From: Eledone cirrhosa
Lineage: Eukaryota
Direction: 5' to 3'
Assembly: GCA_964016885.1 (NCBI GenBank)
Contig: OZ024757.1
Location: 35,030,001-35,094,000, forward strand
Length of the DNA: 64,000 nucleotides
The translations under genes and the position numbers were made by a program. Under the pieces are notes generated by a model. That model was not told the DNA's origin. It was given only the letters and a program-made list of their open reading frames with translations, and did no database searches. Shown here piece by piece: positions 1 to 64,000 of the stretch (within the stretch, counting starts at the first letter, position 1; every line of letters starts with the position of its first letter).

Positions 1-1570
1 TCTCTCGTTTCATCTCTCTCTCCCTCTCGTTTCATCTCGCTCTCACTCTCTCATTTCATCTCGCTCTCTCTCTCTCTAGTTTGATCTCGCTCTCACTCTC
101 TTTTCCTCTCTCTCTCTTGTTTCAACACTCTAATCCCTCACTTGTTTCATCTCTCTCAGAATTATTAGCCACAGGGGCAGAGATGTCCATAACTTTACAT
201 GTCAGAATTATTAGCCACAGGGGCAGAGATGTCCATAACATTACATGACAGTTTTATTAGCCACAGGGGCAGAGATGTCCATAACATTACATGACGAATT
301 TATTAGCCACAGGGGCAGAGATGTCCATAACATTACATGACAGAATTATTAGCCACAGGGGCAGAGATGTCCATAACATTACATGACATAATTATTAGCC
401 ACAGGGGCAGAGATGTCCATAACATTACATGACAGAATTATTAGCCACAGGGGCAGATATGTCCATAACATTACATGACAATTATTAGCCCCAAGGGCAG
501 ATATGTCCATAACATTACATGACAGACTTACATCTCACGCTCTCTCTCTCTCTCGTTTCATCTCGCGCTCTCTCTCTTCCTCTCTCTCGTTTCATCTCGC
601 TCTCTCTCTCTCTCTTGTTTCATCTCGCGCTCTCTCTCTTCTTCTCTCTCGTTTCATCTCGCTCTCTCTGTCTCTCGTTTCAACTTTGTCTTCCTCTCTC
701 TCGTTCCATCTCTCTCTTCCTCTCTCTCTCGTTCCATCTCTCTCTCGTTTCATCTAGCTCTCACTCTCTCGTTTCATCTCGCTCTCTCTGTCTCGTTCCA
801 TCTCGCTCTCTCTCTCTCGTTTCATCTCTATCTCCCACGTTTCATCTGTCTCTCTCTCTGTCATTTCATCTCCCTCTATCTCTCTCTCGCTCTCCCGTTT
901 CATCTCTACCTCCCTCTCGTTTCATCTCGCTCTCTCACTCCTGTTTCATCTCGCTCTCTCTCTCCTGTTTAATCTCGCTCTCTACTCTCGTTCCATCTCT
1001 CTCTCGTTTCATCTAGCTCTCACTCTCTCGTTTCATCTCGCTCTCTCTGTCTCTCATTTCATCTCGATCTCTCTGTCTCGTTTCATCCCGCTCTCTCTCT
1101 CTCGTTTCATCTCACTCTCACTCTCTCATTTCATCTCGCTCTCTCTCTCTCGTTTCATCTCGCGCTCTCTCTCTTCCTCTCTCTCGTTTCATCTCGCTCT
1201 CTCTCTCTCGTTTCATCACGCGTTCTCTCTCTTCCTCTCTCTCGTTTCATCTCTCTCTCTCGTTTCATCTCTATCTCCCTCGTTTCATCTGTCTCTCTCT
1301 CTGTCGTTTCATCTCCCTCTATCTCTCTCTCGCTCTCTCGTTTCATCTCTCTCTCCCTCTCGTTTCAACTCGCTCTCTCTCTCCTGTTTCATCTCGCTCT
1401 CTCTCTCTCCTGTTTCATCTCGCTCTCTACTCTCGTTTCCTCTCTCTCGTTTCCTCTCTCTCGTTTCCTCTCTCTCTCGTTTCCTCTCTCTCTCGTTTCA
1501 TTTAGCTCTCACTCTCTCGTTTCATCTCGCTCTCTCTCTCTCATTTCATCTCGCTCTCTCTCTCTCGTTT
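1..1570 (+). repeat. CT-oriented satellite arm (end of preceding higher-order unit)
   Basis: tctcgtttcatctcgc(tc)n motifs plus one 46-mer array; near-identical to ~25820-27393 and ~47550-49123. Confidence 0.95.
157..522 (+). repeat. 46-bp minisatellite array (7x46 + terminal 44-bp variant)
   Basis: Tandem cagaattattagccacaggggcagagatgtccataacattacatga; last unit caattattagccccaagggcagatatg... Confidence 0.95.
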
Positions 1571-1658
1571 CCATAGAAAAGGTAAAGAAAAGAAGAATGC
1601 TCTATGTATTGTACAGAGCTATTTAATTACATAATAAACAACAGAATATAATTATTCC

Positions 1659-2425
1659 ATGCAAATAGACTTAGAATGGAAAACATTCAGACAGAGAAGA
1701 ATGGGTAATGAGCGTCGTAAGAGAAATTGGCCAACAATTAATATTAATGGAAATGTAGAAGAATTTCATATTAGTGATATGAATGTTTCGTGTGATCACT
1801 GTGGAGCTTTGAAATTTAGAAATGAAAATTGTAACTGTTGTAATAAAGGAAAGGTTGTGTTGCCACCATTGCAAATATACCCTGAGAGACTGAGAAATCT
1901 CTTTGAAAGAGGCCAGGAAGCAGTTGATTTCACAGAAACATCTGCAATTAAAACTACATTTATTTCACTTCATTTGGTGTTACCACCCGGCAGAGGCCCG
2001 TATAGCTTTCATATTCAGAGTCAAACATATCACTACACCCCCATCTCTGTAACCTGCAGAAAATACACCACAATATGGCCAGTTATATATTATTGATGGG
2101 AACGAAGGTATGTAGCACAGATTGGAAGTACAACCAAATAATTGTTTCTGGCACAAGGCCAGCAATTACTGGTACTTTATTCTATCGACCTCATAAGGAT
2201 GAAAACAAAGTCAACCTTGGAGGGATTTGAACCCAGAACGTAAATGGCCATAACCCTATGCTGTAAAGCATGGTGTCTGGCGCTCTACCGATACTGCCAA
2301 TCCACTGCCCTAGTACCAACAAATAATGACTGCTCACCACAAAAAATGGCTATGATAAGAGAAGTGTTGCATGAATGTAATCCATATGTCGAAGTGTACA
2401 ATACAATGCATGGCATCGCAAATGA
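1659..2425 (+). pseudogene. Decayed Helitron Rep/Helicase N-terminal fragment, copy 1
   Basis: Colinear motifs across frameshifts/stops: MNVSCDHCGALKFRNE..CCNKGKVVLPPL, RNICN*NYIYFTSFG (1934-1978), LPPGRGPYSFHIQSQTYH (1980-2033), PQYGQLYIID (2068-2097), EVLHECNPYV; resemble the cysteine-rich region preceding the Rep domain of animal Helitrons (recognised from memory). Confidence 0.85.
2143..2311 (-). mobile_element. tRNA-derived SINE (SINE-A), copy 1
   Basis: Minus strand has A-box-like TGGCAGTATCGG (2288-2299) and B-box GGGTTCAAATCCC (2222-2234); flanking direct repeats 2127-2142 / 2312-2327 match at 14 of 16 bases; paralog at 2981-3152. Confidence 0.85.
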
Positions 2426-2450
2426 ATATATATATATATATATATATATA
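2426..2450. repeat. (AT)n microsatellite
   Basis: About (AT)12; ends the recognisable Helitron similarity. Confidence 0.9.
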
Positions 2451-2980
2451 CTACTAAAGTGTATGTAAAATTTTAAAATAAATACTTAAATTCAATTTGT
2501 ATAATTACACATACAATATGTTTTGTTGTAAAACCCTAAATAATGATTTAAGAAATGATGTCAATCTCTTTGTACAGAGAAAAACAATTTATATATATGC
2601 ATTGTGTGCGCCTGTATACTCCATTTAAGACAGTGAAAAACCTAGTACCTCCTTCAAAGAATGCCAAATAGTTTATGCCTAAGGTGTAACACTAATTAAG
2701 TTACCGGTGTAGATATTTCAGTTGAACCCTGCTTCAAACATGCATATTATTATTATATATTTTCAAACACACTTACATACATTATATTTATACACATAGA
2801 AATAATAAGTTAAAACTAAAGTATAATGATATAACAACAGTATATAATAGTTTTCTTCACTTTATTGAGATGCAATCGTTTTAAAGAAAAAACATGACAG
2901 TATAAGAAATATTTAATATGAGAACATAATATTTCAGGTAGGATGGTGGTTTCTCTATGATGGTGGTTTCTCTTTGAACT

Positions 2981-3152
2981 AATAATTGTTTCTATTTTAG
3001 GCACAAGGTCAGTAATTAACCAGTACATTACTGGTACTTTATTTTATCGACCCCGTAAGGATGAAAGGCAAAGTTGACCTCGGATCGTAAAGGGACGTAA
3101 CTATGCTGGAAAGCATGGCGTCAGACCCTCTACCGATACTGCCAATTCACCA
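2981..3152 (-). mobile_element. Second, diverged SINE of same family (SINE-B) lacking the B-box, copy 1
   Basis: Aligns to SINE-A (ggcacaagg...ctggtactttatt.tatcgacc...aaggatgaaa...ctctaccgatactgccaat) but lacks the gggatttgaaccc segment. Confidence 0.8.
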
Positions 3153-3575
3153 TACAGTATAATTATACAAATATGCATATAGATAGCAATATATATACAC
3201 TAATATGTATGTACATATTTACACATATGTACATATATATAGGGAGAGAGAGAGACACATGTATGTATATATATATACACATGCGTGTATGCATGTGTGT
3301 TTATGTACATTCTTCGGTATATATATCGGTATACACATTGGAGACACAGAGAGAGAGAGTTGAAACGAGAGGTGAGAGAGAGAGTTGAAACGAGGAGAGA
3401 GTTGAAACGAGGAGAGAGTTTAAACAAGAGGGTGAGGGGAGAGAGGAAGAGAGAGAGAGAGAGGAAGAGAGAGAGATGGGATGAGAGAGAGGAAGAGAGA
3501 GAGGGAGAGAAGGGGATGAAACAAGAGGGTGAGGGATGAAACAACAGAGAGAGGGGAGAGAAAGAGAGAGGGGAT

Positions 3576-3616
<41 letters not shown>

Positions 3617-5069
3617 ATTGAAACAAGAGAGAGATGAAACAAGTGAGGGATTAGAGAGAGATGAAACAAGTGAGGGATTAGAGTGTTGAAACAAGAGAGA
3701 GAGAGCGAGATGAAATGAGAGAAAGAGAGTGAGATGAAATGAGAGAGTGAGAGCGAGATGAAACGAGACAGGGAGAGCGAGATGAAATGAGAGAGTGAGA
3801 GCGAGATGAAATGAGAGAGTGAGAGCGAGATGAAACGAGAGAGTGAGAGCGAGATGAAACGAGAGAGTGAGAGCGAGATGAAACGAGAGAGAGAGAGAAC
3901 GAGATGAAATGAGAGAGAGAGAGAGCGAGATGAAATGAGACATAGAGAGATGAAACGAGAGAGAGATGAAACGAGAAAGAGAGGAAACGAGAGAGTGGAA
4001 ACAAGAGTAGAGAGCGAGATGAAACAGGAGTGAGAGAGCGAGATGAAACAGGAGAGAGAGAGCGAGATGAAACGAGAGGGAGAGAGAGATGAAACGAGAG
4101 AGCGAGAGAGAGATAGAGGGAAATGAAACGACAGAGAGAGAGACAGATGAAACGAGGGATATAGAGATGAAACGAGAGAGAGAGATGAAACGAGAGAGAG
4201 GAAGAGAGAGATAGAACGAGAGAGAGGAAGAGAGAGATGAAACGAGAGAGAGGAAGACAGAGGTGAAACGAGAGAGAGAGAGAGCGAGATGAAACGAGAG
4301 AGAGGAAGAGAGAGAGCGCGCAAGATGAAACGAGAGAGAGAGAGCGAGATGAAACGAGAGAGAGGAAGAGAGAGAGCGCGAGATGAAACGAGAGAGAGAG
4401 AGCGAGATGAAATGAGAGAGTGAGAGTGAGATGAAACGAGAGAGAGAGAGAGAGCGAGATGAAATGAGAGAGAGAGAGCGAGATGAAATGAGAGAGAGAG
4501 AGCGAGATGAAACGAGACAGAGAGAGCGGGATGAAACGAGACAGAGAGATCGAGATGAAATGAGAGAGAGAGGACAAGATGAAATGAGAGAGAGAGAGCG
4601 AGATGAAACGAGAGAGTGAGATCGAGATGGAACGAGTCAGAGAGAGCGAGATGAAACGAGAGAGTGAGAGCTAGATGAAACGAGAGAGAGGAAACGAGAG
4701 AGAGAGGAAACGAGAGAGAGGAAACGAGAGAGAGGAAACGAGAGTAGAGAGCAAGATGAAACAGGAGAGAGAGAGAGCGAGATGAAACCGGAGAGAGAGA
4801 GCGAGATGAAACGAGAGGGAGGGAGAGATGAAACGAGAGAGCGAGAGAGAGATAGAGGGAGATGTGAACGAGAGAGTGACAGCTAGATGAAACGAGAGAG
4901 AGAGGAATAGAGAGATGGAACGAGAGAGAGGAAGACAGATATGAAACGAGAGAGAGAGAGAGCGAGATGAAACGAGAGAGAGGAAGAGAGAGAGCGCGAG
5001 ATGAAATGAGAGAGAGAGAGCGAGATGAAACGAGAGAGAGGAAGAGAGAGAGCGCGAGATGAAAGTCTG

Positions 5070-5435
5070 TCATGTAATGTTATGGACATATCTGCCCTTG
5101 GGGCTAATAATTGTCATGTAATGTTATGGATATCTCTGCCCCTGTGGCTAATAATTCTGTCATGTAATGTTATGGACATCTCTGCCCCTGTGGCTAATAA
5201 TTCTGTCATGTAATGTTATGGACATCTCTGCCCCTGTGGCTAATAATTCTGTCATGTAATGTTATGGACATCTCTGCCCCTGTGGCTAATAAATCTGACA
5301 TGTAATGTTATGGACATCTGTGCCCCTGTGGCTAATAAATCTGTCATGTAATGTTATGGACATCTCTGCCCCTGTGGCTAATAATTCTGACATGTAATGT
5401 TATGGACATCTCTGCCCCTGTGGCTATTAATTCTG
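5070..5435 (-). repeat. 46-bp minisatellite array (8 units)
   Basis: Reverse complement of the 46-mer; 44-bp variant first. Confidence 0.95.
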
Positions 5436-6464
5436 AGAGAGATGAAACAAGTGAGGGATTAGAGAGAGATGAAACAAGTGAGGGATTAGAGTGTTGAAAC
5501 AAGAGAGAGGAAGAGAGAGTGAGAGCGAGATCAAACGAGAGAGAGAGAGCGAGATGAAATGAGAGAGAGAGAGCGAGATGAAACAAGACAGAGAGAACGG
5601 GATGAAACGAGACAGAGAGAGCGAGAGCGAGATGAAACGAGACAGAGAGAGCGAGATGAAACGAGAGAGAGAGAGCGAGATGAAATGAGAGAGAGAGAGC
5701 GAGATGAAATGAGAGAGAGAGAGCGAGATGAAACGAGACAGAGAGAGCGGGATGAAACGAGACAGAGAGAGTGAGAGCGAGATGAAACGAGACAGAGAGA
5801 GCGAGATGAAACGAGAGAGAGAGAGCGGGATGAAATGAGAGAGAGAGAGCGAGATGAAATGAGAGAGAGAGAGCGAGATGAAATGAGAGAGAGAGAGCGA
5901 GATGAAACGAGACAGAGAGAGCGGGATGAAACGAGACAGAGAGATCGAGATGAAATGAGAGAGAGAGAGCAAGATGAAATGAGAGAGAGAGAGCGAGATG
6001 AAACGAGAGAGTGAGATCGAGATGGAACGAGTCAGAGAGAGCGAGATGAAACGAGAGAGTGAGAGCTAGATGAAACGAGAGAGAGGAAACGAGAGAGAGA
6101 GGAAACGAGAGAGAGGAAACGAGAGAGAGGAAACGAGAGTAGAGAGCAAGATGAAACAGGAGAGAGAGAGCGAGATGAAACCGGAGAGAGAGAGCGAGAT
6201 GAAACGAGAGGGAGGGAGAGATGAAACGAGAGAGCGAGAGAGAGATAGAGGGAGATGTGAACGAGAGAGTGACAGCTAGATGAAACGAGAGAGAGAGGAA
6301 TAGAGAGATGGAACGAGAGAGAGGAAGACAGATATGAAACGAGAGAGAGAGAGAGCGAGATGAAACGAGAGAGAGGAAGAGAGAGAGCGCGAGATGAAAT
6401 GAGAGAGAGAGCGAGCGAGATGAAACGAGAGAGAGGAAGAGAGAGAGCGCGAGATGAAAGTCTG

Positions 6465-6873
6465 TCATGTAATGTTATGGACATATCTGCCCTTGGGGCT
6501 AATAATTGTCATTTAATGTTATGGACATATTGCCCTTGGGGCTAATAATTGTCATGTAATGTTATGGATATCTCTGCCCCTGTGGCTAATAATTCTGTCA
6601 TGTAATGTTATGGACATCTCTGCCCCTGTGGCTAATAATTCTGTCATGTAATGTTATGGACATCTCTGCCCCTGTGGCTAATAATTCTGTCATGTAATGT
6701 TATGGACATCTCTGCCCCTGTGGCTAATAAATCTGACATGTAATGTTATGGACATCTGTGCCCCTGTGGCTAATAAATCTGTCATGTAATGTTATGGACA
6801 TCTCTGCCCCTGTGGCTAATAATTCTGACATGTAATGTTATGGACATCTCTGCCCCTGTGGCTATTAATTCTG
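6465..6873 (-). repeat. 46-bp minisatellite array (9 units)
   Basis: Two short terminal variants then seven 46-mers. Confidence 0.95.
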
Positions 6874-8952
6874 AGAGAGATGAAACAAGTGAGGGATTAG
6901 AGAGAGATGAAACAAGTGAGGGATTAGATTGTTGAAACAAGAGAGAGGAAGAGAGAGTGAGAGCGAGATCAAACGAGAGAGAGAGAGCGAGATGAAATGA
7001 GAGAGAGAGAGCGAGATGAAACAAGACAGAGAGAACGGGATGAAACGAGACAGAGAGAGCGAGAGCGAGATGAAACGAGACAGAGAGAGCGAGATGAAAC
7101 GAGAGAGAGAGAGCGAGATGAAATGAGAGAGAGAGAGCGAGATGAAATGAGAGAGAGAGAGCGAGATGAAACGAGACAGAGAGAGCGGGATGAAACGAGA
7201 CAGAGAGAGTGAGAGCGAGATGAAACGAGACAGAGAGAGCGAGATGAAACGAGAGAGAGAGAGCGGGATGAAATGAGAGAGAGAGAGCGAGATGAAATGA
7301 GAGAGAGAGAGCGAGATGAAACGAGAGAGTGAGAGCGAGATGGAACGAGACAGAGAGAGCGAGATGAAACGAGACAGAGAGAGCGAGATGAAACGAGACA
7401 GAGAGAGCGAGAGCGAGATGAAACGAGACAGAGAGAGCGAGATGAAACGAGAGAGAGAGAGCGAGATGAAATGAGAGAGTGAGAGCGAGATGAAACGAGA
7501 GAGAGAGAGAGAGAGCGAGATGAAATGAGAGAGAGAGAGCGAGATGAAATGAGAGAGAGAGAGCGAGATGAAACGAGACAGAGAGAGCGGGATGAAACGA
7601 GACAGAGAGAGCGAGAGCGAGATGAAATGCGACAGAGAGAGTGAGATGAAACGAGAGAGAGAGAGTGAGATGAAATGAGAGAGAGAGAGCGAGATGAAAC
7701 GAGAGAGTGAGAGCGAGATGAAACGAGAGAGAGAGGAAATGAGAGAGACGAAACGAGAGAGAGGAAACGAGAGTAGAGAGCGAGATGAAACAGGAGAGAG
7801 AGAGCGAGATGAAACAGGAGAGAGAGAGCGAGATGAAACGAGAGGGAGAGAGAGATGAAACGAGAGAGCGAGAGAGAGATCGAGGGAGATGAAACGACAG
7901 AGAGAGAGACAGATGAAACGAGGGAGATAGAGATGAAACGAGAGAGAGAGATGAAACGAGAGAGAGGAAGAGAGAGATGGAACGAGAGAGAGGAAGTCAG
8001 AGATGAAACGAGAGAGAGAGAGAGCAAGATGAAACGAGAGAGAGATGAAACGAGAGAGAGGAAGAGAGAGATGGAACGAGAGAGAGGAAGAGAGAGATGG
8101 AACGAGAGAGAGGAAGCCAGAGATGAAACGAGAGAGAGAGAGAGAGAGATGAAACGAGAGAGAGGAAGAGAGAGAGAGCGCAAGATGAAACGAGAGAGAG
8201 AGAGCGAGATGAAACGAGAGAGAGGAAGAGAGAGAGCGCGAGATGAAACGAGAGAGAGGAAGAGAGAGAGCGCGAGATGAAACGAGAGAGAGAGAGCGAG
8301 ATGAAATGAGAGAGTGAGAGTGAGATGAAACAAGAGAGAGAGAGAGAGCGAGATGAAATGAGAGAGAGAGAGCGAGATGAAATGAGAGAGAGAGAGCGGG
8401 ATGAAACGAGACAGAGAGATCGAGATGAAATGAGAGAGAGAGAGCAAGATGAAATGAGAGAGAGAGAGCGAGATGAAACGAGAGAGTGAGATCGAGATGG
8501 AACGAGTCAGAGAGAGCGAGATGAAACGAGAGAGTGAGAGCTAGATGAAACGAGAGAGAGGAAACGAGAGAGAGAGGAAACGAGAGAGAGGAAACGAGAG
8601 AGAGGAAACGAGAGAGAGGAAACGAGAGTAGAGAGCAAGATGAAACAGGAGAGAGAGAGAGCGAGATGAAACCGGAGAGAGAGAGCGAGATGAAACGAGA
8701 GGGAGGGAGAGATGAAACGAGAGAGCGAGAGAGAGATAGAGGGAGATGAAACGAGAGAGTGACAGCTAGATGAAACGAGAGAGAGAGGAATAGAGAGATG
8801 GAACGAGAGAGAGGAAGACAGATATGAAACGAGAGAGAGAGAGAGCGAGATGAAACGAGAGAGAGGAAGAGAGAGAGCGCGAGATGAAATGAGAGAGCGA
8901 GAGCGAGATGAAACGAGAGAGAGGAAGAGAGAGAGCGCGAGATGAAAGTCTG

Positions 8953-9316
8953 TCATGTAATGTTATGGACATATCTGCCCTTGGGGCTAATAGTTGTCAT
9001 TTAATGTTATGGACATATCTGCCCTTGGGGCTAATAATTGTCATGTAATGTTATGGATATCTCTGCCCCTGTGGCTAATAATTCTGTCATGTAATGTTAT
9101 GGACATCTCTGCCCCTGTGGCTAATAATTCTGTCATGTAATGTTATGGACATCTCTGCCCCTGTGGCTAATAATTCTGTCATGTAATGTTATGGACATCT
9201 CTGCCCCTGTGGCTAATAAATCTGACATGTAATGTTATGGACATCTGTGCCCCTGTGGCTAATAAATCTGTCATGTAATGTTATGGACATCTCTGCCCCT
9301 GTGGCTAATAATTCTG
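8953..9316 (-). repeat. 46-bp minisatellite array (8 units)
   Basis: Two 44-bp variants then six 46-mers. Confidence 0.95.
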
Positions 9317-11307
9317 AGAGAGATGAAACAAGTGAGGGATTAGAGAGAGATGAAACAAGTGAGGGATTAGAGTGTTGAAACAAGAGAGAGGAAGAGAGAG
9401 TGAGAGCGAGATCAAACGAGAGAGAGAGAGCGAGATGAAATGAGAGAGAGAGAGCGAGATGAAACAAGACAGAGAGAACGGGATGAAACGAGACAGAGAG
9501 AGCGAGAGCGAGATGAAACGAGACAGAGAGAGCGAGATGAAACGAGAGAGAGAGAGCGAGATGAAATGAGAGAGAGAGAGCGAGATGAAATGAGAGAGAG
9601 AGAGCGAGATGAAACGAGAGAGTGAGAGCGAGATGGAACGAGAGAGAGAGAGAGAGCGAGATGAAATGAGAGAGAGAGAGCGAGATGAAATGAGAGAGAG
9701 AGAGCGAGATGAAACGAGACAGAGAGAGCGGGATGAAACGAGACAGAGAGAGCGAGAGCGAGATGAAACGAGACAGAGAGAGCGAGATGAAACGAGAGAG
9801 AGAGAGCGGGATGAAATGAGAGAGAGAGAGCGAGATGAAATGAGAGAGAGAGAGCGAGATGAAACGAGAGAGTGAGAGCGAGATGGAACGAGACAGAGAG
9901 AGCGAGATGAAACGAGAGTGGGAGAGCTAGATGAAACGAGAGAGAGAGGAAACGAGAGAGAGAGGAAACGAGAGAGACGAAACGAGAGAGAGGAAACGAG
10001 AGTAGAGAGCGAGATGAAAGAGGAGAGAGAGAGCGAGATGAAACAGGAGAGAGATAGCGAGATGAAACGAGAGGGAGAGAGAGATGAAACGAGAGAGCGA
10101 GAGAGAGATAGAGGGAGATGAAACGACAGAGAGAGAGACAGATGAAACGAGGGAGATAGAGATGAAACGAGAGAGAGGAAGAGAGAGATGGAACGAGAGA
10201 GAGGAAGAGAGAGATGGAACGAGAGAGAGGAAGACAGAGATGAAACGAGAGAGAGAGAGAGAGCAAGATAAAACGAGAGAGAGAGATTAAACGAGAGAGA
10301 GGAAGAGAGAGATGGAACGAGAGAGAGGAAGAGAGAGATGGAACGAGAGAGAGGAAGACAGAGAGCGCAAGATGAAACGAGAGAGAGAGAGAGAGAGCGA
10401 GATGAAACGAGAGAGAGGAAGAGAGAGAGCGCGAGATGAAACGAGAGAGAGGAAGTGAGAGAGCGCGAGATGAAACGAGAGAGAGAGAGCGAGATGAAAT
10501 GAGAGAGTGAGAGTGAGATGAAACGAGAGAGAGAGAGAGAGAGCGTGATGAAATGAGAGAGAGAGAGCGAGATGAAATGAGAGAAAGAGAGTGAGATGAA
10601 ATGAGAGAGTGAGAGCGAGATGAAACGAGACAGGGAGAGCGAGATGAAATGAGAGAGTGAGAGCGAGATGAAACGAGAGAGTGAGAGCGAGATGAAACGA
10701 GAGAGAGAGAGAGCGAGATGACACGAGACAGAGAGAGCGAGATGAAATGAGAGAGAGAGAGAGAGAGAGAGAGCGAGATGAAACGAGAGAGAGAGTGCGA
10801 AATGAAACGAGAGTGAGAGAGCGAGATGAAACGAGAGAGTGAGAGCGAGATGAAATGAGAGAGAGAGAGAACGAGATGAAATGAGAGAGAGAGAGAGCGA
10901 GATGAAATGAGACATAGAGAGATGAAACGAGAGAGAGATGAAACGAGAAAGAGAGGAAACGAGAGAGTGGAAACAAGAGTAGAGAGCGAGATGAAACAGG
11001 AGTGAGAGAGCGAGATGAAACAGGAGAGAGAGAGCGCGATGAAACGAGAGGGAGCGAGAGAGAGATAGAGGGAAATGAAACGACAGAGAGAGAGACAGAT
11101 GAAACGAGGGATATAGAGATGAAACGAGAGAGAGATATGAAACGAGAGAGAGGAAGAGAGAGATAGAACGAGAGAGAGGAAGAGAGAGATGAAACGAGAG
11201 AAAGGAAGACAGAGGTGAAACGAGAGAGAGAGAGAGCGAGATGAAACGAGAGAGAGAGCGAGATGAAACGAGAGAGAGGAAGAGAGAGAGCGCGAGATGA
11301 AACTCTG

Positions 11308-11756
11308 TCATGGACATCTCTGCCCATGTGGCTAATAATTCTGTCATGTAATGTTATGGACAACTCTGCCCCTGTGGCTATTAATTCTGTCATGTAATGT
11401 TATGGACATCTCTGCCCCTGTGGCTAATAATTCTGACATGTAATGTTATGGAATCTCTGCCCCTGTGGCTAATAAATCTGTCATGTAATGTTACGGACAT
11501 CTCTGCCCCTGTGGCTAATAAATCTGTCATGTAATGTTATGGACATCTCTGCCCCTGTGGCTAATAATTCTGACATGTAATGTTATGGACATCTCTGTCC
11601 CTGTGGCTAATAATTCTGACATGTAATGTTATGGACATCTCTGCCCCTGTGGCTAATAATTCTGACATGTAATGTTATGGACATCTGTGCCCCTGTGGCT
11701 AATAATTCTGACATGTAATGTTATGGACATCTCTGCCCCTGTGGCTAATAATTCTG
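11308..11756 (-). repeat. 46-bp minisatellite array (~10 units)
   Basis: First unit carries a 10-bp deletion (tcatggacatc). Confidence 0.95.
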
Positions 11757-50521: not shown

Positions 50522-50693
50522 AATAATTGTTTCTATTTTAGGCACAAGGTCAGTAATTAACCAGTACATTACTGGTACTTTATTTTATCGACCCCGTAAG
50601 GATGAAAGGCAAAGTTGACCTCGGATCGTAAAGGGACGTAACTATGCTGGAAAGCATGCCGTCAGACCCTCTACCGATACTGACAATTCACCA
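50522..50693 (-). mobile_element. SINE-B, copy 3
   Basis: Counterpart of 2981-3152. Confidence 0.8.
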
Positions 50694-51124: not shown

Positions 51125-51159
<35 letters not shown>

Positions 51160-53890: not shown

Positions 53891-54254
53891 TCATGTAATG
53901 TTATGGACATATCTGCCCTTGGGGCTAATAATTGTCATTTAATGTTATGGACATATCTGCCCTTGGGGCTAATAATTGTCATGTAACGTTATGGATATCT
54001 CTGCCCCTGTGGCTAATAATTCTGTCATGTAATGTTATGGACATCTCTGCCCCTGTGGCTAATAATTCTGTCATGTAATGTTATGGACATCTCTGCCCCT
54101 GTGGCTAATAATTCTGTCATGTAATGTTATGGACATCTCTGCCCCTGTGGCTAATAATTCTGACATGTAATGTTATGGACATCTGTGCCCCTGTGGCTAA
54201 TAATTCTGACATGTAATGTTATGGACATCTCTGCCCCTGTGGCTAATAATTCTG
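53891..54254 (-). repeat. 46-bp minisatellite array (8 units)
   Basis: Two 44-mers then six 46-mers. Confidence 0.95.
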
Positions 54255-55841
54255 AGAGAGATGAAACAAGTGAGGGATTAGAGAGAGATGAAACAAGTGA
54301 GGGATTAGAGTGTTGAAACAAGAGAGAGGAAGAGAGAGTGAGAGCGAGATCAAACGAGAGAGAGAGAGCGAGATGAAATGAGAGAGAGAGAGCGAGATGA
54401 AACAAGACAGAGAGAGCGGGATGAAACGAGACAGAGAGAGCGAGAGCGAGATGAAACGAGACAGAGAGAGCGAGATGAAATGAGAGAGAGAGAGCGAGAT
54501 GAAATGAGAGAGAGAGAGCGAGATGAAATGAGAGAGAGAGAGCGAGATGAAACAAGAGAGTGAGAGCGAGATGGAACGAGAGAGAGAGAGAGAGCGAGAT
54601 GAAATGAGAGAGAGAGAGCGAGATGAAATGAGAGAGAGAGAGCGAGATGAAACGAGACAGAGAGAGCGGGATGAAACGAGACAGAGAGAGCGAGATGAAA
54701 TGAGAGAGAGAGAGCGAGATGAAACGAGAGAGTGAGAGCGAGATGGAACGAGACAGAGAGAGCGAGATGAAACGAGAGTGGGAGAGCTAGATGAAACGAG
54801 AGAGAGAGGAAACGAGAGAGACGAAACGAGAGAGAGGAAACGAGAGTAGAGAGCGAGATGAAACAGGAGAGAGAGAGCGAGATGAAACAGGAGAGAGATA
54901 GCGAGATGAAACGAGAGGGAGAGAGAGATGAAACGAGAGAGCGAGAGAGGGATAGAGGGAGATGAAACGACAGAGAGAGAGACAGATGAAACGAGGGAGA
55001 TAGAGATGAAACGAGAGAGAGGAAGAGAGAGATGGATCGAGAGAGAGGAAGAGAGAGATGGAACGAGAGAGAGGAAGACAGAGATGAAACGAGAGAGAGA
55101 CAGAGCAAGATGAAACGAGAGAGAGAGATTAAACGAGAGAGAGGAAGAGAGAGATGGAACGAGAGAGAGGAAGAGAGAGATGGAACGAGAGAGAGGAAGA
55201 CAGAGATGAAACGAGAGAGAGAGAGAGAGAGATGAAACGAGAGAGAGGAAGAGAGAGAGCGCAAGATCAAACGAGAGAGAGAGAGAGAGAGAGCGAGATG
55301 AAACGAGAGAGAGGAAGAGAGAGAGCGCGAGATGAAACGAGAGACAGGAAGAGAGAGAGCGCGAGATGAAACGAGAGAGTGAGAGCGAGATGAAATGAGA
55401 GAGAGAGAGAACGAGATGAAATGAGAGAGAGAGAGAGCGAGATGAAATGAGACATAGAGAGATGAAACGAGAGAGAGATGAAACGAGAAAGAGAGGAAAC
55501 GAGAGAGTGGAAACAAGAGTAGAGAGCGAGATGAAACAGGAGTGAGAGAGCGAGAAGAAACAGGAGAGAGAGAGCGAGATGAAACGAGAGGGAGCGAGAG
55601 ATGAAACGAGAGAGCGAGAGAGAGATAGAGGGAAATGAAACGACAGAGAGAGAGACAGATGAAACGAGGGATATAGAGATGAAACGAGAGAGAGATATGA
55701 AACGAGAGAGAGGAAGAGAGAGATAGAACGAGAGAGAGGAAGACAGAGGTGAAACGAGAGAGAGAGAGAGCGAGATGAAACGAGAGAGAGAGCGAGATGA
55801 AACGAGAGAGAGGAAGAGAGAGAGCGCGAGATGAAACTCTG

Positions 55842-56060
55842 TCATGGACATCTCTGCCCCTGTGGCTAATAATTCTGTCATGTAATGTTATGGACAACTC
55901 TGCCCCTGTGGCTAATAATTCTGTCATGTAATGTTATGGACATCTCTGCCCCTGTGGCTAATAATTCTGACATGTAATGTTATGGAATCTCTGCCCCTGT
56001 GGCTAATAAATCTGTCATGTAATGTTACGGACATCTCTGCCCCTGTGGCTAATAATTCTG
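55842..56060 (-). repeat. 46-bp minisatellite array (~5 units)
   Basis: Reverse 46-mers. Confidence 0.95.
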
Positions 56061-57200
56061 AGAGAGATGAAACAAGTGAGGGATTAGAGAGAGATGAAAC
56101 AAGTGAGGGATTAGAGTGTTGAAACAAGAGAGAGAGAGGAAGAGTGAGTGAGAGCGAAATCAAACGAGAGAGAGCGAGATGAAATGAGAGAGTGAGAGCG
56201 AGATGAAACGAGAGAGAGAGAGAGAGCGAGATGAAATGAGAGAGAGAGAGCGAGATGAAATGAGAGAGAGTGAGCGAGATGAAACGAGACAGAGAGAGCG
56301 GGATGAAACGAGACAGAGAGAGCGAGAGCGAGATGAAACGAGACAGAGAGAGCGAGATGAAACGAGAGAGAGAGAGCGAGATGAAATGAGAGAGAGAGAG
56401 CGAGATGAAATGAGAGAGAGAGAGCGAGATGAAACGAGAGAGTGAGAGCGAGATAGAACGAGACAGAGAGAGCGAGATGAAACGAGAGTGGGAGAGCTAG
56501 ATGAAACGAGAGAGAGAGGAAACGAGAGAGAGGAAGAGAGAGAGCGCAAGATGAAACGAGAGAGAGAGAGCGAGATGAAACGAGAGAGAGGAAGAGAGAG
56601 AGCGCGAGATGAAACGAGAGAGAGGAAGAGAGAGAGCGCGTGATGAAACGAGAGAGAGAGAGCGAGATGAAATGAGAGAGTGAGAGTGAGATGAAACGAG
56701 AGAGAGAGAGAGAGCGAGATGAAATGAGAGAGAGAGAGCGAGATGAAATGAGAGAGAGAGAGCGAGATGAAACGAGACAGAGAGAGCGGGATGAAACGAG
56801 ACAGAGAGATCGAGATGAAATGAGAGAGAGAGAGCAAGATGAAATGAGAGAGAGAGAGCGAGATGAAACGAGAGAGTGAGATCGAGATGGAACGAGTCAG
56901 AGAGAGCGAGATGAAACGAGAGAGTGAGAGCTAGATGAAACGAGAGAGAGGAAACGAGAGAGGAAACGAGAGAGAGGAAACGAGAGTAGAGAGCAAGATG
57001 AAACAGGAGAGAGAGAGAGCGAGATGAAACCGGAGAGAGAGAGTGAGATGAAACGAGAGGGAGGGAGAGATGAAACGAGAGAGCGAGAGAGAGATAGAGG
57101 GAGATGAAACGAGGGAGTGACAGCTAGATGAAACGAGAGAGAGAGGAATAGAGAGATGGAACGAGAGAGAGGAAGAGAGAGAGCGCGAGATGAAAGTCTG

Positions 57201-57564
57201 TCATGTAATGTTATGGACATATCTGCCCTTGGGGCTAATAATTGTCATTTAATGTTATGGACATATCTGCCCTTGGGGCTAATAATTGTCATGTAATGTT
57301 ATGGATATCTCTGCCCATGTGGCTAATAATTCTGTCATGTAATGTTATGGACATCTCTGCCCCTGTGGCTAATAATTCTGTCATGTAATGTTATGGACAT
57401 CTCTGCCCCTGTGGCTAATAATTCTGTCATGTAATGTTATGGACATCTCTGCCCCTGCGGCGAATAATTCTGACATGTAATGTTATGGCCATCTGTGCCC
57501 CTGTGGCTAATAATTCTGACATGTAATGTTATGGACATCTCTGCCCCTGTGGCTAATAATTCTG
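57201..57564 (-). repeat. 46-bp minisatellite array (8 units)
   Basis: Two 44-mers then six 46-mers. Confidence 0.95.
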
Positions 57565-59195
57565 AGAGAGATGAAACAAGTGAGGGATTAGAGAGAGATG
57601 AAACAAGTGAGGGATTAGAGTGTTGAAACAAGAGAGAGGAAGAGAGAGTGAGAGCGAGATCAAACGAGAGAGAGAGAGCGAGATGAAATGAGAGAGAGAG
57701 AGCGAGATGAAACAAGACAGAGAGAGCGGGATGAAACGAGACAGAGAGAGCGAGAGCGAGATGAAACGAGACAGAGAGAGCGAGATGAAACGAGAGAGAG
57801 AGAGCGAGATGAAATGAGAGAGAGAGAGCGAGATGAAATGAGAGAGAGAGAGCGAGATGAAACAAGAGAGTGAGAGCGAGATGGAACGAGAGAGAGAGAG
57901 AGAGCGAGATGAAATGAGAGAGAGAGAGCGAGATGAAATGAGAGAGAGAGAGCGAGATGAAACGAGACAGAGAGAGCGGGATGAAACGAGACAGAGAGAG
58001 CGAGAGCGAGATGAAACGAGACAGAGAGAGCGAGATGAAACGAGACAGAGAGAGCGAGATGAAATGAGAGAGAGAGAGCGAGATGAAACGAGAGAGTGAG
58101 AGCGAGATGGAACGAGACAGAGAGAGCGAGATGAAACGAGAGTGGGAGAGCTAGATGAAACGAGAGAGAGAGGAAACGAGAGAGAGAGGAAACGAGAGTA
58201 GAGAGCGAGATGAAACAGGAGAGAGAGAGCGAGATGAAACAGGAGAGAGATAGCGAGATGAAACGAGAGGGAGAGAGAGATGAAACGAGAGAGCGAGAGA
58301 GAGATAGAGGGAGATGAAACGACAGAGAGAGAGACAGATGAAACGAGGGAGATAGAGATGAAACGAGAGAGAGGAAGAGAGAGATGGAACGAGAGAGAGG
58401 AAGAGAGAGATGGAACGAGAGAGAGGAAGACAGAGATGAAACGAGAGAGAGACAGAGCAAGATTAAACGAGAGAGAGGAAGAGAGAGATGGAACGAGAGA
58501 GAGGAAGAGAGAGATGGAACGAGAGAGAGGAAGACAGAGATGAAACGAGAGAGAGAGAGAGAGAGATGAAACGAGAGAGAGGAAGAGAGAGAGCGCAAGA
58601 TGAAACGAGAGAGAGAGAGAGCGAGATGAAACGAGAGAGAGGAAGAGAGAGAGCACGAGATGAAACGAGAGACAGGAAGAGAGAGAGCGCGAGATGAAAC
58701 GAGAGAGTGAGAGCGAGATGAAATGAGAGAGAGAGAGAACGAGATGAAATGAGAGAGAGAGAGAGCGAGATGAAATGAGACATAGAGAGATGAAACGAGA
58801 GAGAGATGAAACGAGAAAGAGAGGAAACGAGAGAGTGGAAACAAGAGCAGAGAGCGAGATGAAACAGGAGTGAGAGAGCGAGATGAAACAGGAGAGAGAG
58901 AGCGAGATGAAACGAGAGGGAGCGAGAGATGAAACGAGAGAGCGAGAGAGAGATAGAGGGAAATGAAACGACAGAGAGAGAGACAGATGAAACGAGGGAT
59001 ATAGAGATGAAACGAGAGAGAGATATGAAACGAGAGAGAGGAAGAGAGAGATAGAACGAGAGAGAGGAAGAGAGAGATGAAACGAGAGAGAGGAAGACAG
59101 AGGTGAAACGAGAGAGAGAGAGAGCGAGATGAAACGAGAGAGAGAGCGAGATGAAACGAGAGAGAGGAAGAGAGAGAGCGCGAGATGAAACTCTG

Positions 59196-59506
59196 TCATG
59201 GACATCTCTGCCCCTGTGGCTAATAATTCTGTCATGTAATGTTATGGACAACTCTGCCCCTGTGGCTAATAATTCTGTCATGTAATGTTATGGACATCTC
59301 TGTCCCTGTGGCTAATAATTCTGACATGTAATGTTATGGAATCTCTGCCCCTGTGGCTAATAAATCTGTCATGTAATGTTACGGACATCTCTGCCCCTGT
59401 GGCTAATAAATCTGTCATGTAATGTTATGGACATCTCTGTCCCTGTGGCTAATAATTCTGACATGTAATGTTATGGACATCTCTGCCCCTGTGGCTAATA
59501 TTTCTG
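59196..59506 (-). repeat. 46-bp minisatellite array (~7 units)
   Basis: Reverse 46-mers. Confidence 0.95.
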
Positions 59507-62213
59507 AGAGAGATGAAACAAGTGAGGGATTAGAGAGAGATGAAACAAGTGAGGGATTAGAGTGTTGAAACAAGAGAGAGAGAGGAAGAGTGAGTGAGAG
59601 CGAAATCAAACGAGAGAGAGCGAGATGAAATGAGAGAGTGAGAGCGAGATGAAACGAGAGAGAGAGAGAGGGCGAGATGAAATGAGAGAGAGAGAGCGAG
59701 ATGAAATGAGAGAGAGTGAGCGAGATGAAACGAGACAGAGAGAGCGGGATGAAACGAGACAGAGAGAGCGAGAGCGAGATGAAACGAGACAGAGAGAGCG
59801 AGATGAAACGAGAGAGAGAGAGCGAGATGAAATGAGAGAGAGAGAGCGAGATGAAATGAGAGAGAGAGAGCGAGATGAAACGAGAGAGTGAGAGCGAGAT
59901 AGAACGAGACAGAGAGAGCGAGATGAAACGAGAGTGGGAGAGCTAGATGAAACGAGAGAGAGAGGAAACGAGAGAGAGAGGAAACGTGAGAGACGAAACG
60001 AGAGAGAGGAAACGAGAGTAGAGTGCGATATGAAACAGGAGAGAGAGAGCGAGATGAAACAGGAGAGAGAGAGCGAGATGAAACGAGAGGGAGAGAGAGA
60101 TGAAACGAGAGAGCGAGAGAGAGATAGAGGGAGATGAAACGACAGAGAGAGAGACAGATGAAACGAGGGAGATAGAGATGAAACGAGAGAGAGAGATGAA
60201 ACGAGAGAGAGGAAGAGAGAGATGGAACGAGAGAGAGGAAGAGAGAGATGGAACGAGAGAGAGGAAGACAGAGATGAAACGAGAGAGAGAGAGAGCAAGA
60301 TGAAACGAGAGAGAGAGATGAAACGAGAGAGAGGAAGAGAGATATGGAACGAGAGAGAGGAAGACAGAGATGAAACGAGAGAGAGAGAGATTGAGATGAA
60401 ACGAGAGAGAGGAAGAGAGAGAGCGCAAGATGAAACGAGAGAGAGAGAGAGAGCGAGATGAAACGAGAGAGAGGAAGAGAGAGAGCGCGAGATGAAACGA
60501 GAGAGAGGAAGAGAGAGAGCGCAAGATGAAACGAGAGAGAGAGAGAGCGAGATGAAACGAGAGAGAGGAAGAGAGAGAGCGCGAGATGAAACGAGAGAGA
60601 GGAAGAGAGAGAGCGCGAGATGAAACGAGAGAGAGAGAGCGAGATGAAATGAGAGAGTGAGAGTGAGATGAAACGAGAGAGAGAGAGAGAGCGAGATGAA
60701 ATGAGAGAGAGAGAGCGAGATGAAATGAGAGAGAGAGAGCGAGATGAAACGAGACAGAGAGATCGAGATGAAATGAGAGAGAGAGAGCAAGATGAAATGA
60801 GAGAGAGAGAGAGCGAGATGAAACGAGAGAGAGAGAGCGAGATGAAATGAGAGAGAGAGAGCAAGATGAAATGAGAGAGAGTGAGAGCTAGATGAAACGA
60901 GAGAGAGAGGAAACGAGAGAGAGAGGAAACGAGAGAGAGAGGAGACGAGAGAGAGGAAACGAGAGAGAGGAAACGAGAGTAGAGAGCAAGATGAAACAGG
61001 AGAGAGAGAGAGCGAGATGAAACCGGAGAGAGAGAGCGAGATGAAACGAGAGGGAGGGAGAGATGAAACAAAGAGCGAGAGAGAGATAGAGGGAGATGAA
61101 ACGAGAGAGTGATAGCTAGATGAAACGAGAGTGAGAGGAATAGAGAGATGGAACGAGAGAGAGGAAGACAGATATGAAACGAGAGAGAGAGAGAGCGAGA
61201 TGAAACGAGAGAGAGGAAGAGAGAGAGCGCGAGATGAAATGAGAGAGAGAGAGAGCGAGATGAAACGAGAGAGAAAAGAGAGAGAGCGCGAGATGAAAAG
61301 AGAGAGAGAGAGAGAGAGCGAGATGAAAAGAGAGAGAGGAAGAGAGAGAGCGCGAGATGAAACGAGAGAGAGAGAGCGAGATGAAATGAGAGAGTGAGGG
61401 TGAGATGAAACGAGAGAGAGAGAGATAGCGAGATGAAATGAGAGAGAGCGAGATGAAATGAGAGAGAGAGATAGCGAGATGAAACGAGACAGAGAAAGCG
61501 GGATGAAACGAGACAGAGAGATCGAGAGGAAATGAGAGACAGAGAGAGCGAGATGAAACGAGAGAGTGAGGAAACGAGAGAGAGAGGAAACGAGAGTAGA
61601 GAGCGAGATGAAACAGGAGAGAGAGAGAGCGAGATAAAACAGGAGAGAGAGAGCGAGATGAAACGAGAGGGAGGGAGAGATGAAACGAGAGAGCGAGAGA
61701 GAGATAGAGGGAGATAGATATGAAACGAGAGAGCGAGATGAAACGAGAGACTGAGATAGAGATGGAACGAGACAGAGAGAGCGAGATGAAACGAGACAGA
61801 GAGAGCGAGATGTAATGAGAGAGAGAGAGAGTGGGATGGAACGAGACAGAGAGGAAACGAGAAAGAGAGGAAACGAGAGAGAGAGGAAACGAGAGAGAGG
61901 AAACGAGAGTAGAGAGCGAGATGAAACAGGAGAGAGAGAGCGAGATGAAACGAGAGGGAGGGAGAGATGAAACGAGAGAGGGAGAGAGAGATAGAGGGAG
62001 ATGAAACGACAGAGAGAGAGACAGATGAAACGAGGGAGATAGAGATGAAACGAGAGAGGAAGAGAGAGATGGAACGAGAGAGAGGAAGAGAGAGATGAAA
62101 CGAGAGAGAGGAAGACAGAGATGAATAGAGAGAGAGAGAGCGAGATGAAACGAGAGAGAGGAAGAGAGAGCGCGAGATGAAACGAGAGAGAGAGAGCGCG
62201 AGATGAAACTCTG

Positions 62214-62804
62214 TCATGTAATGTTATGGACATATCTGCCCTTGGGGCTAATAATTGTCATGTAATGTTATGGACGTCTCTGCACCTGTGGCTAATAATT
62301 CTGTCATGTAACGTTATGGACAACTCTGCCCCTGTGGCTAATAATTATGTCATGTAATGTTATGGACATCTCCGCCCCTGTGGCTAATAATTCTGACATG
62401 TAATGTTATGGACATCTCTGCCCCTCTGGCTAATAATTCTGACATGTAATGTTATGGACATCTCTGCCCCTGTGGCTAATAAATCAGAATTATTAGCCAC
62501 AGGGGCAGAGATGTCCATAACATTACATGTCAGAATTATTAGCCACAGGGGCAGAGATGTCCATAACATTACATGACAGATTTATTAGCCACAGGGGCAG
62601 AGATGTTCATAACACTACATGTCAGAATTATTAGCCACAGGGGCAGAGATGTCCATAACATTACATTACATAATTATTAGCCACAGGGGCAGAGATGTCC
62701 ATAACATTACATGACAGAATTATTAGCCACAGGGGCAGAGATGTCCATAACATTACATGACAATTATTAGCCCCAAGGGCAGATATGTCCATAACATTAC
62801 TTGA
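62214..62804. repeat. Inverted 46-mer arrays forming palindrome centre 3 (spacer 62483-62489)
   Basis: Same ggctaataa-atcagaa-ttattagcc junction. Confidence 0.95.
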
Positions 62805-64000
62805 CAGACTTTCATCTCGCGCTCTCTCTCTCGTTTCATCTCGCACTCTCTCTCTTCCTCTCTCTCGTTTCATCTCGCTCTCTCTCTCTGGTTTCATCTC
62901 GCGTTAACTCTCTTCCTCTCTCTCGTTTCATCTCTCTCTCTCGTTTCATCTCTATCTCCCTCGTTTCATCTGTCTCTCTCTCTGTCGTTTCATCTCCCTC
63001 TAACTCTCTCTCGCTCTCTCGTTTCATCTCTCTCTCCCTCTCGTTTCATCTCGCTCTCTCTCTCCTGTTTCATCTCGCTCTCTCTCTCCTGTTTCATCTC
63101 GCTCTCTCTCTCCTGTTTCATCTCGCTCTCTACTCTCGTTTCCTCTCTCTCATATCCTCTCTCTCGTTTCCTCTCTCTCTCGTTTCCTCTCTCTCTCGTT
63201 TCCTCTAGCTCTCACTCTCTCGTTTCATCTCGCTCTCTCTCTCTCATTTCATCTCGCTCTCTCTCTCTCGTTTCATCTCGCTCTCTCTGTCTCGTTTCAT
63301 TTCGCTCTCTCTCTCTCTCATTTCATCTCGCTATCTCTATCTCGTTTCATCCCGCTCTCTCTGTCTCGTTTCATCTCGCTCTCTCTCTCTCATTTCATCT
63401 CGCTCTCTCTCTCTCATTTCATCTCGCTCTCTCTCTCTCTCGTTTCATCTCGCTCTCACTCTCTCATTTCATCTCGCTCTCTCTCTCTCGTTTGATCTCG
63501 CTCTCACTCTATCTTCCTCTCTCTCTCTTGTTTCAACACTCTAATCCCTCACTTGTTTCATCTCTCTCAGATTTATTAGCCACAGGGGCAGAGATGTCCA
63601 TAACATTACTTGACGAATTTATTAGCCACAGGGGCAGAGATGTCCATAACATTACATGACAGAATTATTAGCCACAGGGGCAGAGATGTCCATAACATTA
63701 CATGACATAATTATTAGCCACAGGGGCAGAGATGTCCATAACATTACATGACAGAATTATTAGCCACAGGGGCAGAGATGTACATAACATTACATGACAA
63801 TTATTAGCCCCAAGGGCAGATATGTCCATAACATTACATGACAATCATTAGTCCCAAGGGCAGATATGTCCATAACATTACATGACAGACTTTAATCTCG
63901 CGCTCTCTCTCTCTCGTTTCATCTCGCCCTCTCTCTCTTCCTCTCTCTCGTTTCATCTCGCTCTCTCTCTCTCTCGTTTCATCTCGCGCTCTCTCTCTTC
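62490..64000 (+). repeat. CT-oriented satellite arm 3 (start, truncated by window)
   Basis: CT block followed by + strand array. Confidence 0.95.
63568..63885 (+). repeat. 46-bp minisatellite array (7 units)
   Basis: Variant order matches 23209-23526 and 44959-45276. Confidence 0.95.

What the first reader, a model, noticed from the sequence alone, without database searches (positions are those of the whole stretch)
1..64000. Four-level macrosatellite whose arms alternate in orientation, with a Helitron relic at every second inversion point
Seen: the pattern CT arm / AT-rich block / GA arm / palindrome centre repeats about three times (block starts 1571, 27394, 49124; centres 18621, 40379, 62483). 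Only two junction types flip the orientation and each is conserved between copies. Known: most satellites are head-to-tail; alternating inverted copies with two fixed junction types are what fold-back, breakage-fusion-bridge or origin-dependent inverted-repeat amplification produce. Inference: an old inverted duplication created a ~22-kb palindromic unit that was later amplified in tandem, possibly a heterochromatic, centromeric or subtelomeric macrosatellite. I cannot tell from sequence alone whether it has been described.
Basis: partly seen in the sequence, partly recalled or inferred. Interest (0 to 1): 0.75.

Follow-up and report, generated by a model that had tools for sequence, protein, structure and literature searches.

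The report
Fold-back macrosatellite grown from dead Helitron
A large repeat array in an animal genome (likely an octopus) flips direction every 9 to 17 kb because one mirror-image junction, likely made by a single DNA copying error inside a small repeat sitting in a dead jumping gene, has been multiplied more than sixty times on three chromosomes; no function is shown.

Summary
The pattern is real: blocks at 1571/27394/49124, centres at 18621/40379/62483, units of 25.8 and 21.7 kb. The flanks and other chromosomes show where it came from. The parent is a head-to-tail composite repeat holding a decayed Helitron. One lineage gained an insert (scraps of another repeat, GA microsatellite, 46-mer array). 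One fold-back junction in the 46-mer is present at least 64 times on C18, C20, C25 and one small contig, and centres pair one-to-one with return junctions (C25: 35 = 21 + 14). There are at least three return types, so 'only two junction types, Helitron at every second flip' holds for this window and 10 C18 copies only. The Helitron is a passenger. Best reading: an inverted triplication by template switching, then deletions and unequal crossing-over. The closest known case is the Tribolium macro-dyad satellites; unlike those it is on few chromosomes, so a general centromere role is unlikely. Junctions were not confirmed in independent reads. The scan had not noted this sequence before; it noted other Helitron-derived and two-armed repeats in this genome.

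The parts
1..1570 (-). End of a CT arm (parent-type GA/46-mer subunits in reverse), cut by the window edge
1562..1580 (.). Return junction type i: CT arm joined to Helitron relic start with 4-bp microhomology (TTTC); 10 exact copies, all on C18
1571..2418 (+). Helitron relic (RepHel aa 148-340, broken by stops and frameshifts), with a SINE-like piece at about 2137-2312 (SINE label recalled, not from a call)
   Evidence: dispersed 75-85% hits to this piece
2419..3349 (+). AT-rich start of the insert: scrambled pieces of a 6.3-kb tandem repeat of C22/C24 (77-95% alike) plus a second SINE-like piece; boundaries approximate
3350..18620 (+). GA arm 1: seven subunits, each a degenerate GA-rich tract (24-bp motif) plus 6-10 copies of the 46-mer; mixes markers of both arm types
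18621..18627 (.). Fold-back centre 1 (7-nt loop, 56-bp perfect arm, 227-bp stem); same junction at >=64 places
18628..27393 (-). CT arm 1: six 46-mer arrays with their tracts
27394..29176 (+). Block 2 (return junction i, Helitron relic, AT-rich mosaic)
29177..40378 (+). GA arm 2: near-identical to arm 1 with internal deletions
40379..40385 (.). Fold-back centre 2 (left array cut to 2 monomers; 22-bp perfect arm)
40386..49123 (-). CT arm 2
49124..50891 (+). Block 3
50892..62482 (+). GA arm 3 (different subunit order)
62483..62489 (.). Fold-back centre 3
62490..64000 (-). Start of CT arm 3; beyond the window it runs into an intact parent unit on the minus strand (C18:35101308)

Best explanation
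This is a composite macrosatellite in which one mirror-image (fold-back) junction inside a 46-bp minisatellite is repeated at least 64 times on three chromosomes, likely made once by a replication template switch and then likely multiplied by unequal crossing-over, with the Helitron piece a likely passenger. Steps: (1, shown) a head-to-tail 8-13-kb repeat containing a decayed Helitron exists on C18, C20, C23, C24, C25. (2, shown structure; order inferred) one lineage carries a 2.6-kb insert in the Helitron: scraps of a C22/C24 repeat, a GA tract and a 46-mer array; the GA+46-mer subunit then multiplied, as in the non-inverted C1 copy. (3, inferred) two template switches inside 46-mer arrays gave an inverted triplication: centre plus return junction iii. 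(4, inferred) a deletion gave return ii; on C18 a further switch from the CT arm to the Helitron start gave return i, leaving the 1.8-kb block as an asymmetric spacer. (5, inferred) crossovers between homologous arms made the tandem 22-26-kb units of this window, and larger blocks moved between chromosomes. No function is needed.
For: Parent units flank the window in one orientation on both sides. Centre 33-mer at 58 places (C18 16, C20 5, C25 35, C644 2), plus 6 of 6 fetched C20 centres that are the same junction with one substitution. Centres pair with returns: C25 35 = 21 type ii + 14 type iii; C18 16 = 10 type i + 4 type ii + 1 type iii + 1 truncated variant. Type iii keeps the same 46-mer-to-parent join as the non-inverted C1 copy. 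Junction microhomologies are 2-4 bp. Tree of 57 copies + 5 distant Helitrons: insert-free copies basal, insert-bearing nested, 9 of 10 type-i copies in one shallow group. Arm markers: on C20/C25 38 of 38 scored inverted-arm arrays carry C (1 unscored) and 23 of 28 parent-arm arrays carry G; on C18 inverted-type arms hold 24 G arrays and 27 arrays with a signature that on C20/C25 occurs only in the parent arm, as a crossover predicts. Other, independent flips occur in the same family (30-bp hairpin fold-back in 24 fetched copies).
Against: Tree support for the nesting of insert-bearing copies is weak (84/77 and 91/81), two insert-free copies fall among them, one type-i copy falls outside its group, and gene conversion can blur such trees. 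The order iii before ii is argued from flanks only. The 7-nt loop is unchanged in all 24 same-type centres and all 9 (one shared), which selection could also explain. Microhomology is shorter than the 5-6 bp reported for yeast ODIRA (PMC10766186 passages). The monomer left of the centre carries the variant needed for an in-strand fold-back in C18 copies but not in several C20/C25 copies. No independent read evidence for either junction was obtained.
Confidence: 0.72

Rival explanations
1. The dyads are kept by selection as (peri)centromeric or other structural DNA (hairpin/cruciform sites), as proposed for Tribolium macro-dyads; same origin, but function explains their number.
For: Dozens of 100-250-bp stems with a 7-nt loop persist although such palindromes are described as unstable (PMC10766186 passages). 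On C25 two oppositely oriented blocks (about 26.46-28.01 and 28.63-29.09 Mb) frame an 80-bp satellite starting at 28.14 Mb.
Against: Centres on only 3 large contigs; C18 has two palindromic clusters and other family arrays at 14.96 and 25.0 Mb. The 80-bp satellite has no exact hit before C25 in a list ordered by contig (2240 hits, first 100 shown). No such core in the sampled C18 or C20 gaps (7 samples of 10 kb). A stem-breaking substitution is shared by 6 of 6 fetched C20 centres. Block orientation on C25 could be a scaffolding choice.
Confidence: 0.12
2. Helitron rolling-circle transposition made and spread the array (tandem truncated Helitrons), and the inversions are by-products of RepHel nicking.
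For: Every unit type holds Helitron sequence; Helitron-derived tandem arrays and variously oriented internal arrays are described (PMC12628747 passages). Family copies sit on at least 8 large contigs.
Against: The relic is broken and internally deleted (RepHel aa 148-512, 633-867, 1367-1498 only). About 7 kb of the 12.6-kb parent is non-Helitron. Centre and returns ii and iii lie in or beside the 46-mer, not at Helitron ends; unit boundaries differ between arrays. Helitron termini were not identified.
Confidence: 0.07
3. Breakage-fusion-bridge cycles produced the alternating copies.
For: Fold-back junctions with short microhomology are a BFB product (established knowledge).
Against: One centre sequence is reused >=64 times rather than a new fold-back per cycle; arrays are interstitial (C18 35 of 43.9 Mb, C20 27 of 37.3 Mb) and the parent resumes in the same orientation.
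Confidence: 0.03
4. A Penelope-type two-armed retro-insertion of a GA/46-mer RNA made the first dyad (lead from earlier scan notes).
For: Earlier notes report back-to-back arrays in this genome (unchecked).
Against: The inverted arm lies in cis between parent-derived flanks that match the non-inverted C1 layout; no Rfam match at gathering score in 40 kb of parent, 2.7-kb units and donor.
Confidence: 0.03
5. Assembly artefact: expansion of one unit or fold-back chimaeric reads.
For: Some neighbouring subunits are 99.9-100% alike; junctions were not seen in the listed contigs of other runs (32 pieces shown of >95,000).
Against: Units differ in length, subunit number and 0.2-0.6% of block bases; the same junction base recurs on 4 contigs in diverged contexts with chromosome-specific markers; no N in the window.
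Confidence: 0.03

Closest known systems
Tribolium satellite macro-dyad symmetries (T. madens TmSat1/TmSat2; PMC13081366: abstract, passages and second half of Discussion read)
   Same: Multi-kb subarrays in opposite orientation, tens-of-kb dyads, few and highly conserved inversion sites, cassette-like units; that paper also notes a satellite/microsatellite conjunction.
   Different: Here about 65 centres on 3 chromosomes against thousands on all chromosomes; the unit is a transposon-derived composite with non-inverted ancestors still present, so conservation of the inversion site can be traced to descent. The paper says such dyads were documented only in Tribolium.
DUP-TRP/INV-DUP inverted triplications and yeast ODIRA amplicons (PMC10766186 and PMC4689423 passages; Aspergillus TRP/INV preprint 10.1101/2025.01.14.632981, abstract only)
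   Same: Inverted middle segment between same-orientation flanks; one fold-back per return; short microhomology; secondary rearrangements that widen the spacer at one junction.
   Different: Fixed in a germ-line repeat and re-amplified to megabase scale; 2-4 bp microhomology; no origin or selected gene shown.
Helitron-derived satellites and tandem truncated Helitrons (review PMC12628747 passages; Xiong et al. 2016 known only through that review, not held)
   Same: Decayed Helitron pieces in tandem, with internal tandem repeats.
   Different: Unit is not bounded by shown Helitron ends, is more than half non-Helitron, and its flips lie in the minisatellite.
Cichlid centromeric 'centroids' (PMC13652916: abstract and first part of Discussion)
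   Same: Satellite blocks in alternating orientation with a transposon-derived spacer at inversion points; on C25 inverted blocks frame another satellite.
   Different: One inverted pair per chromosome about 200 kb apart on most chromosomes there; here dozens of flips per locus on few chromosomes and no methylation or CENP-A data.

Membership tests
Macro-dyad-symmetry satellite (Tribolium type) | Multi-kb subarrays of one satellite in opposite orientation | tested here: met
   Arms of 8.7-15.3 kb in the window
Macro-dyad-symmetry satellite (Tribolium type) | Few, conserved inversion sites | tested here: met
   24 of 26 tail-to-tail flips in fetched DNA are one junction (one spurious C1 row dropped); three main return types
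Macro-dyad-symmetry satellite (Tribolium type) | Dominant, on (peri)centromeres of all chromosomes | tested here: not met
   Centres on C18, C20, C25, C644 only; 4450 exact hits of a 27-mer of the monomer genome-wide
Macro-dyad-symmetry satellite (Tribolium type) | Confirmed on raw long reads | not testable with these tools
   Only short-read contigs and RAD runs were listed
Inverted triplication (DUP-TRP/INV-DUP, ODIRA-like) | Inverted segment between same-orientation flanks, one return per fold-back | tested here: met
   C25 35 = 21 + 14
Inverted triplication (DUP-TRP/INV-DUP, ODIRA-like) | Junctions at pre-existing 5-6-bp inverted repeats 40-80 bp apart | tested here: inconclusive
   Only 2-4 bp shared; spacing about one monomer if the neighbouring copy was the template, which cannot be fixed in a tandem array
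Inverted triplication (DUP-TRP/INV-DUP, ODIRA-like) | Replication origin inside the amplified segment | not testable with these tools
   none
Helitron (RepHel element) | RepHel homology | tested here: met
   55% to P0001, E 1.6e-30; PF21530 E 3.5e-12 in the parent, 1 of 7 pieces above cut-off; the window ORF alone had no Pfam hit
Helitron (RepHel element) | Intact RepHel reading frame | tested here: not met
   Stops, frameshifts, two large deletions
Helitron rolling-circle tandem array | Units bounded by Helitron 5' end, one 3' hairpin-CTRR end | not tested
   Termini were not searched for; unit boundaries differ between arrays
Centromeric satellite | One locus on each chromosome | tested here: not met
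   (lists show only the first 100 places)
Centromeric satellite | CENP-A binding / methylation dip | not testable with these tools
   none
Breakage-fusion-bridge amplicon | New fold-back per cycle and terminal loss | tested here: not met
   One centre reused; interstitial; flanks in one orientation

The most novel reading that the evidence does not exclude
A single replication error seeded a hairpin-rich macro-dyad domain that has been recruited as pericentromeric framing DNA in a cephalopod: on C25 two inverted megabase blocks of it enclose a chromosome-specific 80-bp satellite core, a fission-yeast-like or centroid-like centromere layout caught while spreading to C18 and C20.
Probability: 0.1. 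Interest if true: 0.8.

Novelty: new variant of a known kind. Interest (0 to 1): 0.5.

Why it matters
Conserved inversion sites in satellite dyads have been read as signs of centromere function in Tribolium, where the authors say such dyads have so far only been seen. Here the non-inverted ancestors, the donor of the insert and three generations of junction survive in one genome, so the same hallmark can be followed back to one likely copying error plus amplification. That gives a neutral null model and a locus where function versus descent can be tested directly. It also shows dozens of long near-perfect hairpin-capable sites persisting in an animal germ line, and supplies markers for cephalopod chromosomes, whose centromere DNA I found no paper on.

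Tried and rejected
Reads: 11 of 15 listed runs hold part of the block, 4 of them half or more of its words, under two organism labels; no RNA holder listed. Laying four contig sets on window 1490-3100 covered 29, 30, 30 and 11 of 30 bins; no listed piece bridged the junction at 1571 (32 of more than 95,000 pieces shown; one X1 contig stops fitting at 1568), and at five places (1705, 2019, 2110, 2363, 2612) the runs with cover showed only the other letter. Pfam on the window ORF alone: 0 families. Rfam on 40 kb: 0 matches. The C22/C24 repeat holds no 46-mer or GA arm, so it is not their source; the C7 three-monomer copy sits inside a SINE-like element and looks derived; the origin of the 46-mer stays open. 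My first idea that the insert-free Helitron is a deletion of the filled one was dropped: the donor match starts exactly at the boundary and insert-free copies are basal. BLAST identities of 76-81% between mirror arms are gap-ridden and were not used for dating. No telomere tract at the C25 end sample. Search by sequence in earlier findings: nothing. One pattern search was mistyped and found nothing (corrected). Supplements of the cited papers were not read.
Full report
OBSERVATION. The window is G000:C18:35030001-35094000 in a 3.0-Gb genome; C18 is 43.9 Mb. Blocks of 1768-1783 bp differ by 0.23-0.56% and units are 25,823 and 21,730 bp. The three centres share a 7-nt loop with perfect arms of 56, 22 and 56 bp; centre 1 folds as one long hairpin, -269.5 kcal/mol against -55 for shuffles (expected for any inverted repeat, not evidence of folding in vivo). 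The levels are a GA-rich 24-bp motif, 46-mer arrays, 1-2.7-kb subunits, the 22-26-kb unit, and probably blocks of about 150 and 200 kb (offset peaks). The animal is likely an octopus: this rests on SINE-like pieces I recall from octopus genomes and on earlier scan notes, not on a test.

THE PARENT. 444 kb around the window were read. On both sides lie head-to-tail units on the minus strand. A 12.6-kb example (C18:35103067-35115686) holds the same block, one GA tract with one 46-mer array, then more Helitron, then about 7 kb of other repeats. Against a full RepHel protein (P0001) the parent matches aa 148-512, 633-867 and 1367-1498; the window's blocks match aa 148-340 only. The GA tract and 46-mer are therefore part of a 2.6-kb insert inside the relic. 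Insert-free units form 8-kb arrays on C23 and occur on C18, C20, C24, C25, C26, C27; six distant Helitrons in the genome also lack it. The AT-rich start of the insert consists of out-of-order pieces of a separate 6.3-kb tandem repeat on C22/C24, the first starting exactly at the insert boundary. On C1 (212.6 Mb) the GA+46-mer subunit is multiplied up to six times with no inversion. A tree of 57 copies with 5 outgroups (copies covering under 700 of 758 columns were not taken) puts insert-free copies at the base, insert-bearing ones nested with weak support, and 9 of 10 window-type copies in one shallow group.

THE JUNCTIONS. The centre 33-mer occurs 58 times: C18 16, C20 5, C25 35, C644 2. Six further C20 units were fetched; 6 of 6 have the same junction with one substitution in the stem, so at least 64. 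In fetched DNA 24 of 26 tail-to-tail flips are this junction and 2 are independent (one C1 row made of two chance single matches dropped). Return junctions: type i (window; CT arm to Helitron start) 10 copies, all C18; type ii (inverted arm to parent sequence 70 bp before an insert-free Helitron) 36 copies, C18 4, C20 11, C25 21; type iii (a second flip inside the 46-mer) 16 copies, C25 14, C18 1, C20 1. On C25 35 = 21 + 14; on C18 16 = 10 + 4 + 1 + 1 truncated variant at 35206930. After type iii come five monomers and the same join to the parent as on C1, so centre + iii is an inverted triplication lying wholly inside the subunit array of a C1-like ancestor. Shared bases at the junctions are 2 (centre), 4 (i), 2 (ii) and 3 (iii), read. 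Rarer flips exist, and the 2.7-kb sub-units carry another fold-back with a 30-bp perfect arm in 24 fetched copies: this family folds back repeatedly, but one event was amplified most.

HOW THE WINDOW'S UNIT AROSE. A C/G marker at array starts separates the arms on C20 and C25: 38 of 38 scored inverted-arm arrays are C (1 unscored), 23 of 28 parent-arm arrays are G, and a diagnostic monomer occurs only in the parent arm next to the Helitron (5 arrays). On C18 the GA arms of window-type units hold 24 G arrays and 27 with that monomer but end in C arrays at the centre. They are chimaeras: an inverted copy of block + parent arm, joined to the old inverted arm. This is what a further template switch (junction i, leaving the block and about 0.3 kb as an asymmetric spacer, low-complexity alignment, approximate) followed by unequal crossover between same-orientation arms would give. 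Mirror subunits are mostly 92-98% alike and direct counterparts 99.7-100% (lenient gaps), so amplification is younger than the inversion. No rate was measured, so no age is given.

FUNCTION. Nothing shows one. Centres lie on 3 large contigs, at 80% (C18), 72% (C20) and 90-99% (C25) of their length. On C25 two blocks of opposite orientation enclose an unrelated 80-bp satellite seen at 28.14, 28.2, 28.3 and 28.4 Mb, which is the one hint of a centromere-like layout; it has no counterpart in the sampled C18 and C20 gaps, and orientation may be a scaffolding choice. The loop is unchanged in every same-type centre seen, but a stem substitution has spread on C20.

WHAT IS KNOWN. The nearest description is the macro-dyad symmetry of Tribolium satellites, with conserved inversion sites, said to be documented only in that genus and proposed to be functional (PMC13081366). 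The junction logic is that of inverted triplications (PMC10766186, PMC4689423). Helitron-derived arrays are reviewed in PMC12628747; cichlid centroids are a structural cousin (PMC13652916). Nine library searches (listings only, except the papers named) found no description of such an array in a cephalopod; a recent octopus repeat annotation does not contain the words satellite or centromer (PMC13282606, word counts and passages). The library lacks most subscription papers.

VERDICT. New as a traceable macro-dyad macrosatellite outside Tribolium with its ancestors preserved. Independent read support is lacking (inconclusive). Interest 0.5.

Noticed in passing
G000:C25:28140559 to beyond 28410000 (L168, L090, L169): 80-bp satellite, about 90% monomer match, one orientation (2239 of 2240 exact hits forward), first hit on C25; framed by oppositely oriented blocks of the macrosatellite. 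Candidate chromosome-specific centromere core.
   Followed up: partly
G000:C22:15.12-15.20, 16.39, 18.18-18.25, 18.87-18.92 Mb; C24:0.87, 13.98 Mb (L145-L156): A separate ~6.3-kb head-to-tail macrosatellite; three of its pieces, out of order, make the AT-rich part of the insert.
   Followed up: partly
L027 (C18:35115687-35118460) and neighbours: 2.7-kb sub-unit with a fold-back at a 13-bp natural hairpin (30-bp perfect arm, 1-nt loop) followed by a ~92-bp minisatellite made of two hairpins that itself flips orientation mid-array.
   Followed up: partly
L165 (C7:42172768-42172890): Three 46-mers sitting inside a SINE-like element far from any array, suggesting a templated patch copied from the array.
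   Followed up: partly
C18:35314035-35316642 (L143); C20:27237064-27238065 (L162); C20:27346428-27349237 (L164); C644:17252-19939: Small clusters of extra, independent flips at array edges; on C20 one type-iii junction has its spacer in the opposite polarity.
   Followed up: partly
Parent unit q8874-10520 and q9454-9751 (C18 ~35105200-35106800): Nested inverted repeats (558 bp at 87%; a 298-bp near-perfect palindrome) inside the parent; no Rfam match at gathering score.
   Followed up: partly
Parent unit q12028 (C18 ~35103660): A single copy of the core GA-arm motif lies in the parent's non-repetitive part and resembles, inverted, the right end of the insert; possible seed of the GA motif.
   Followed up: no
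L173, L174 (C20:27.28-27.31 Mb); L118, L167, L171 (C25): Other tandem repeats next to the arrays: a several-kb AT-rich unit at 99% identity on C20, and a 72-bp repeat at 26.43, 28.10 and (inverted) 29.20 Mb on C25.
   Followed up: no
/: The block is held at 0.69 of its words by a run labelled organism A and 0.43-0.61 by runs labelled organism B, so the family may be shared by two labels.
   Followed up: partly
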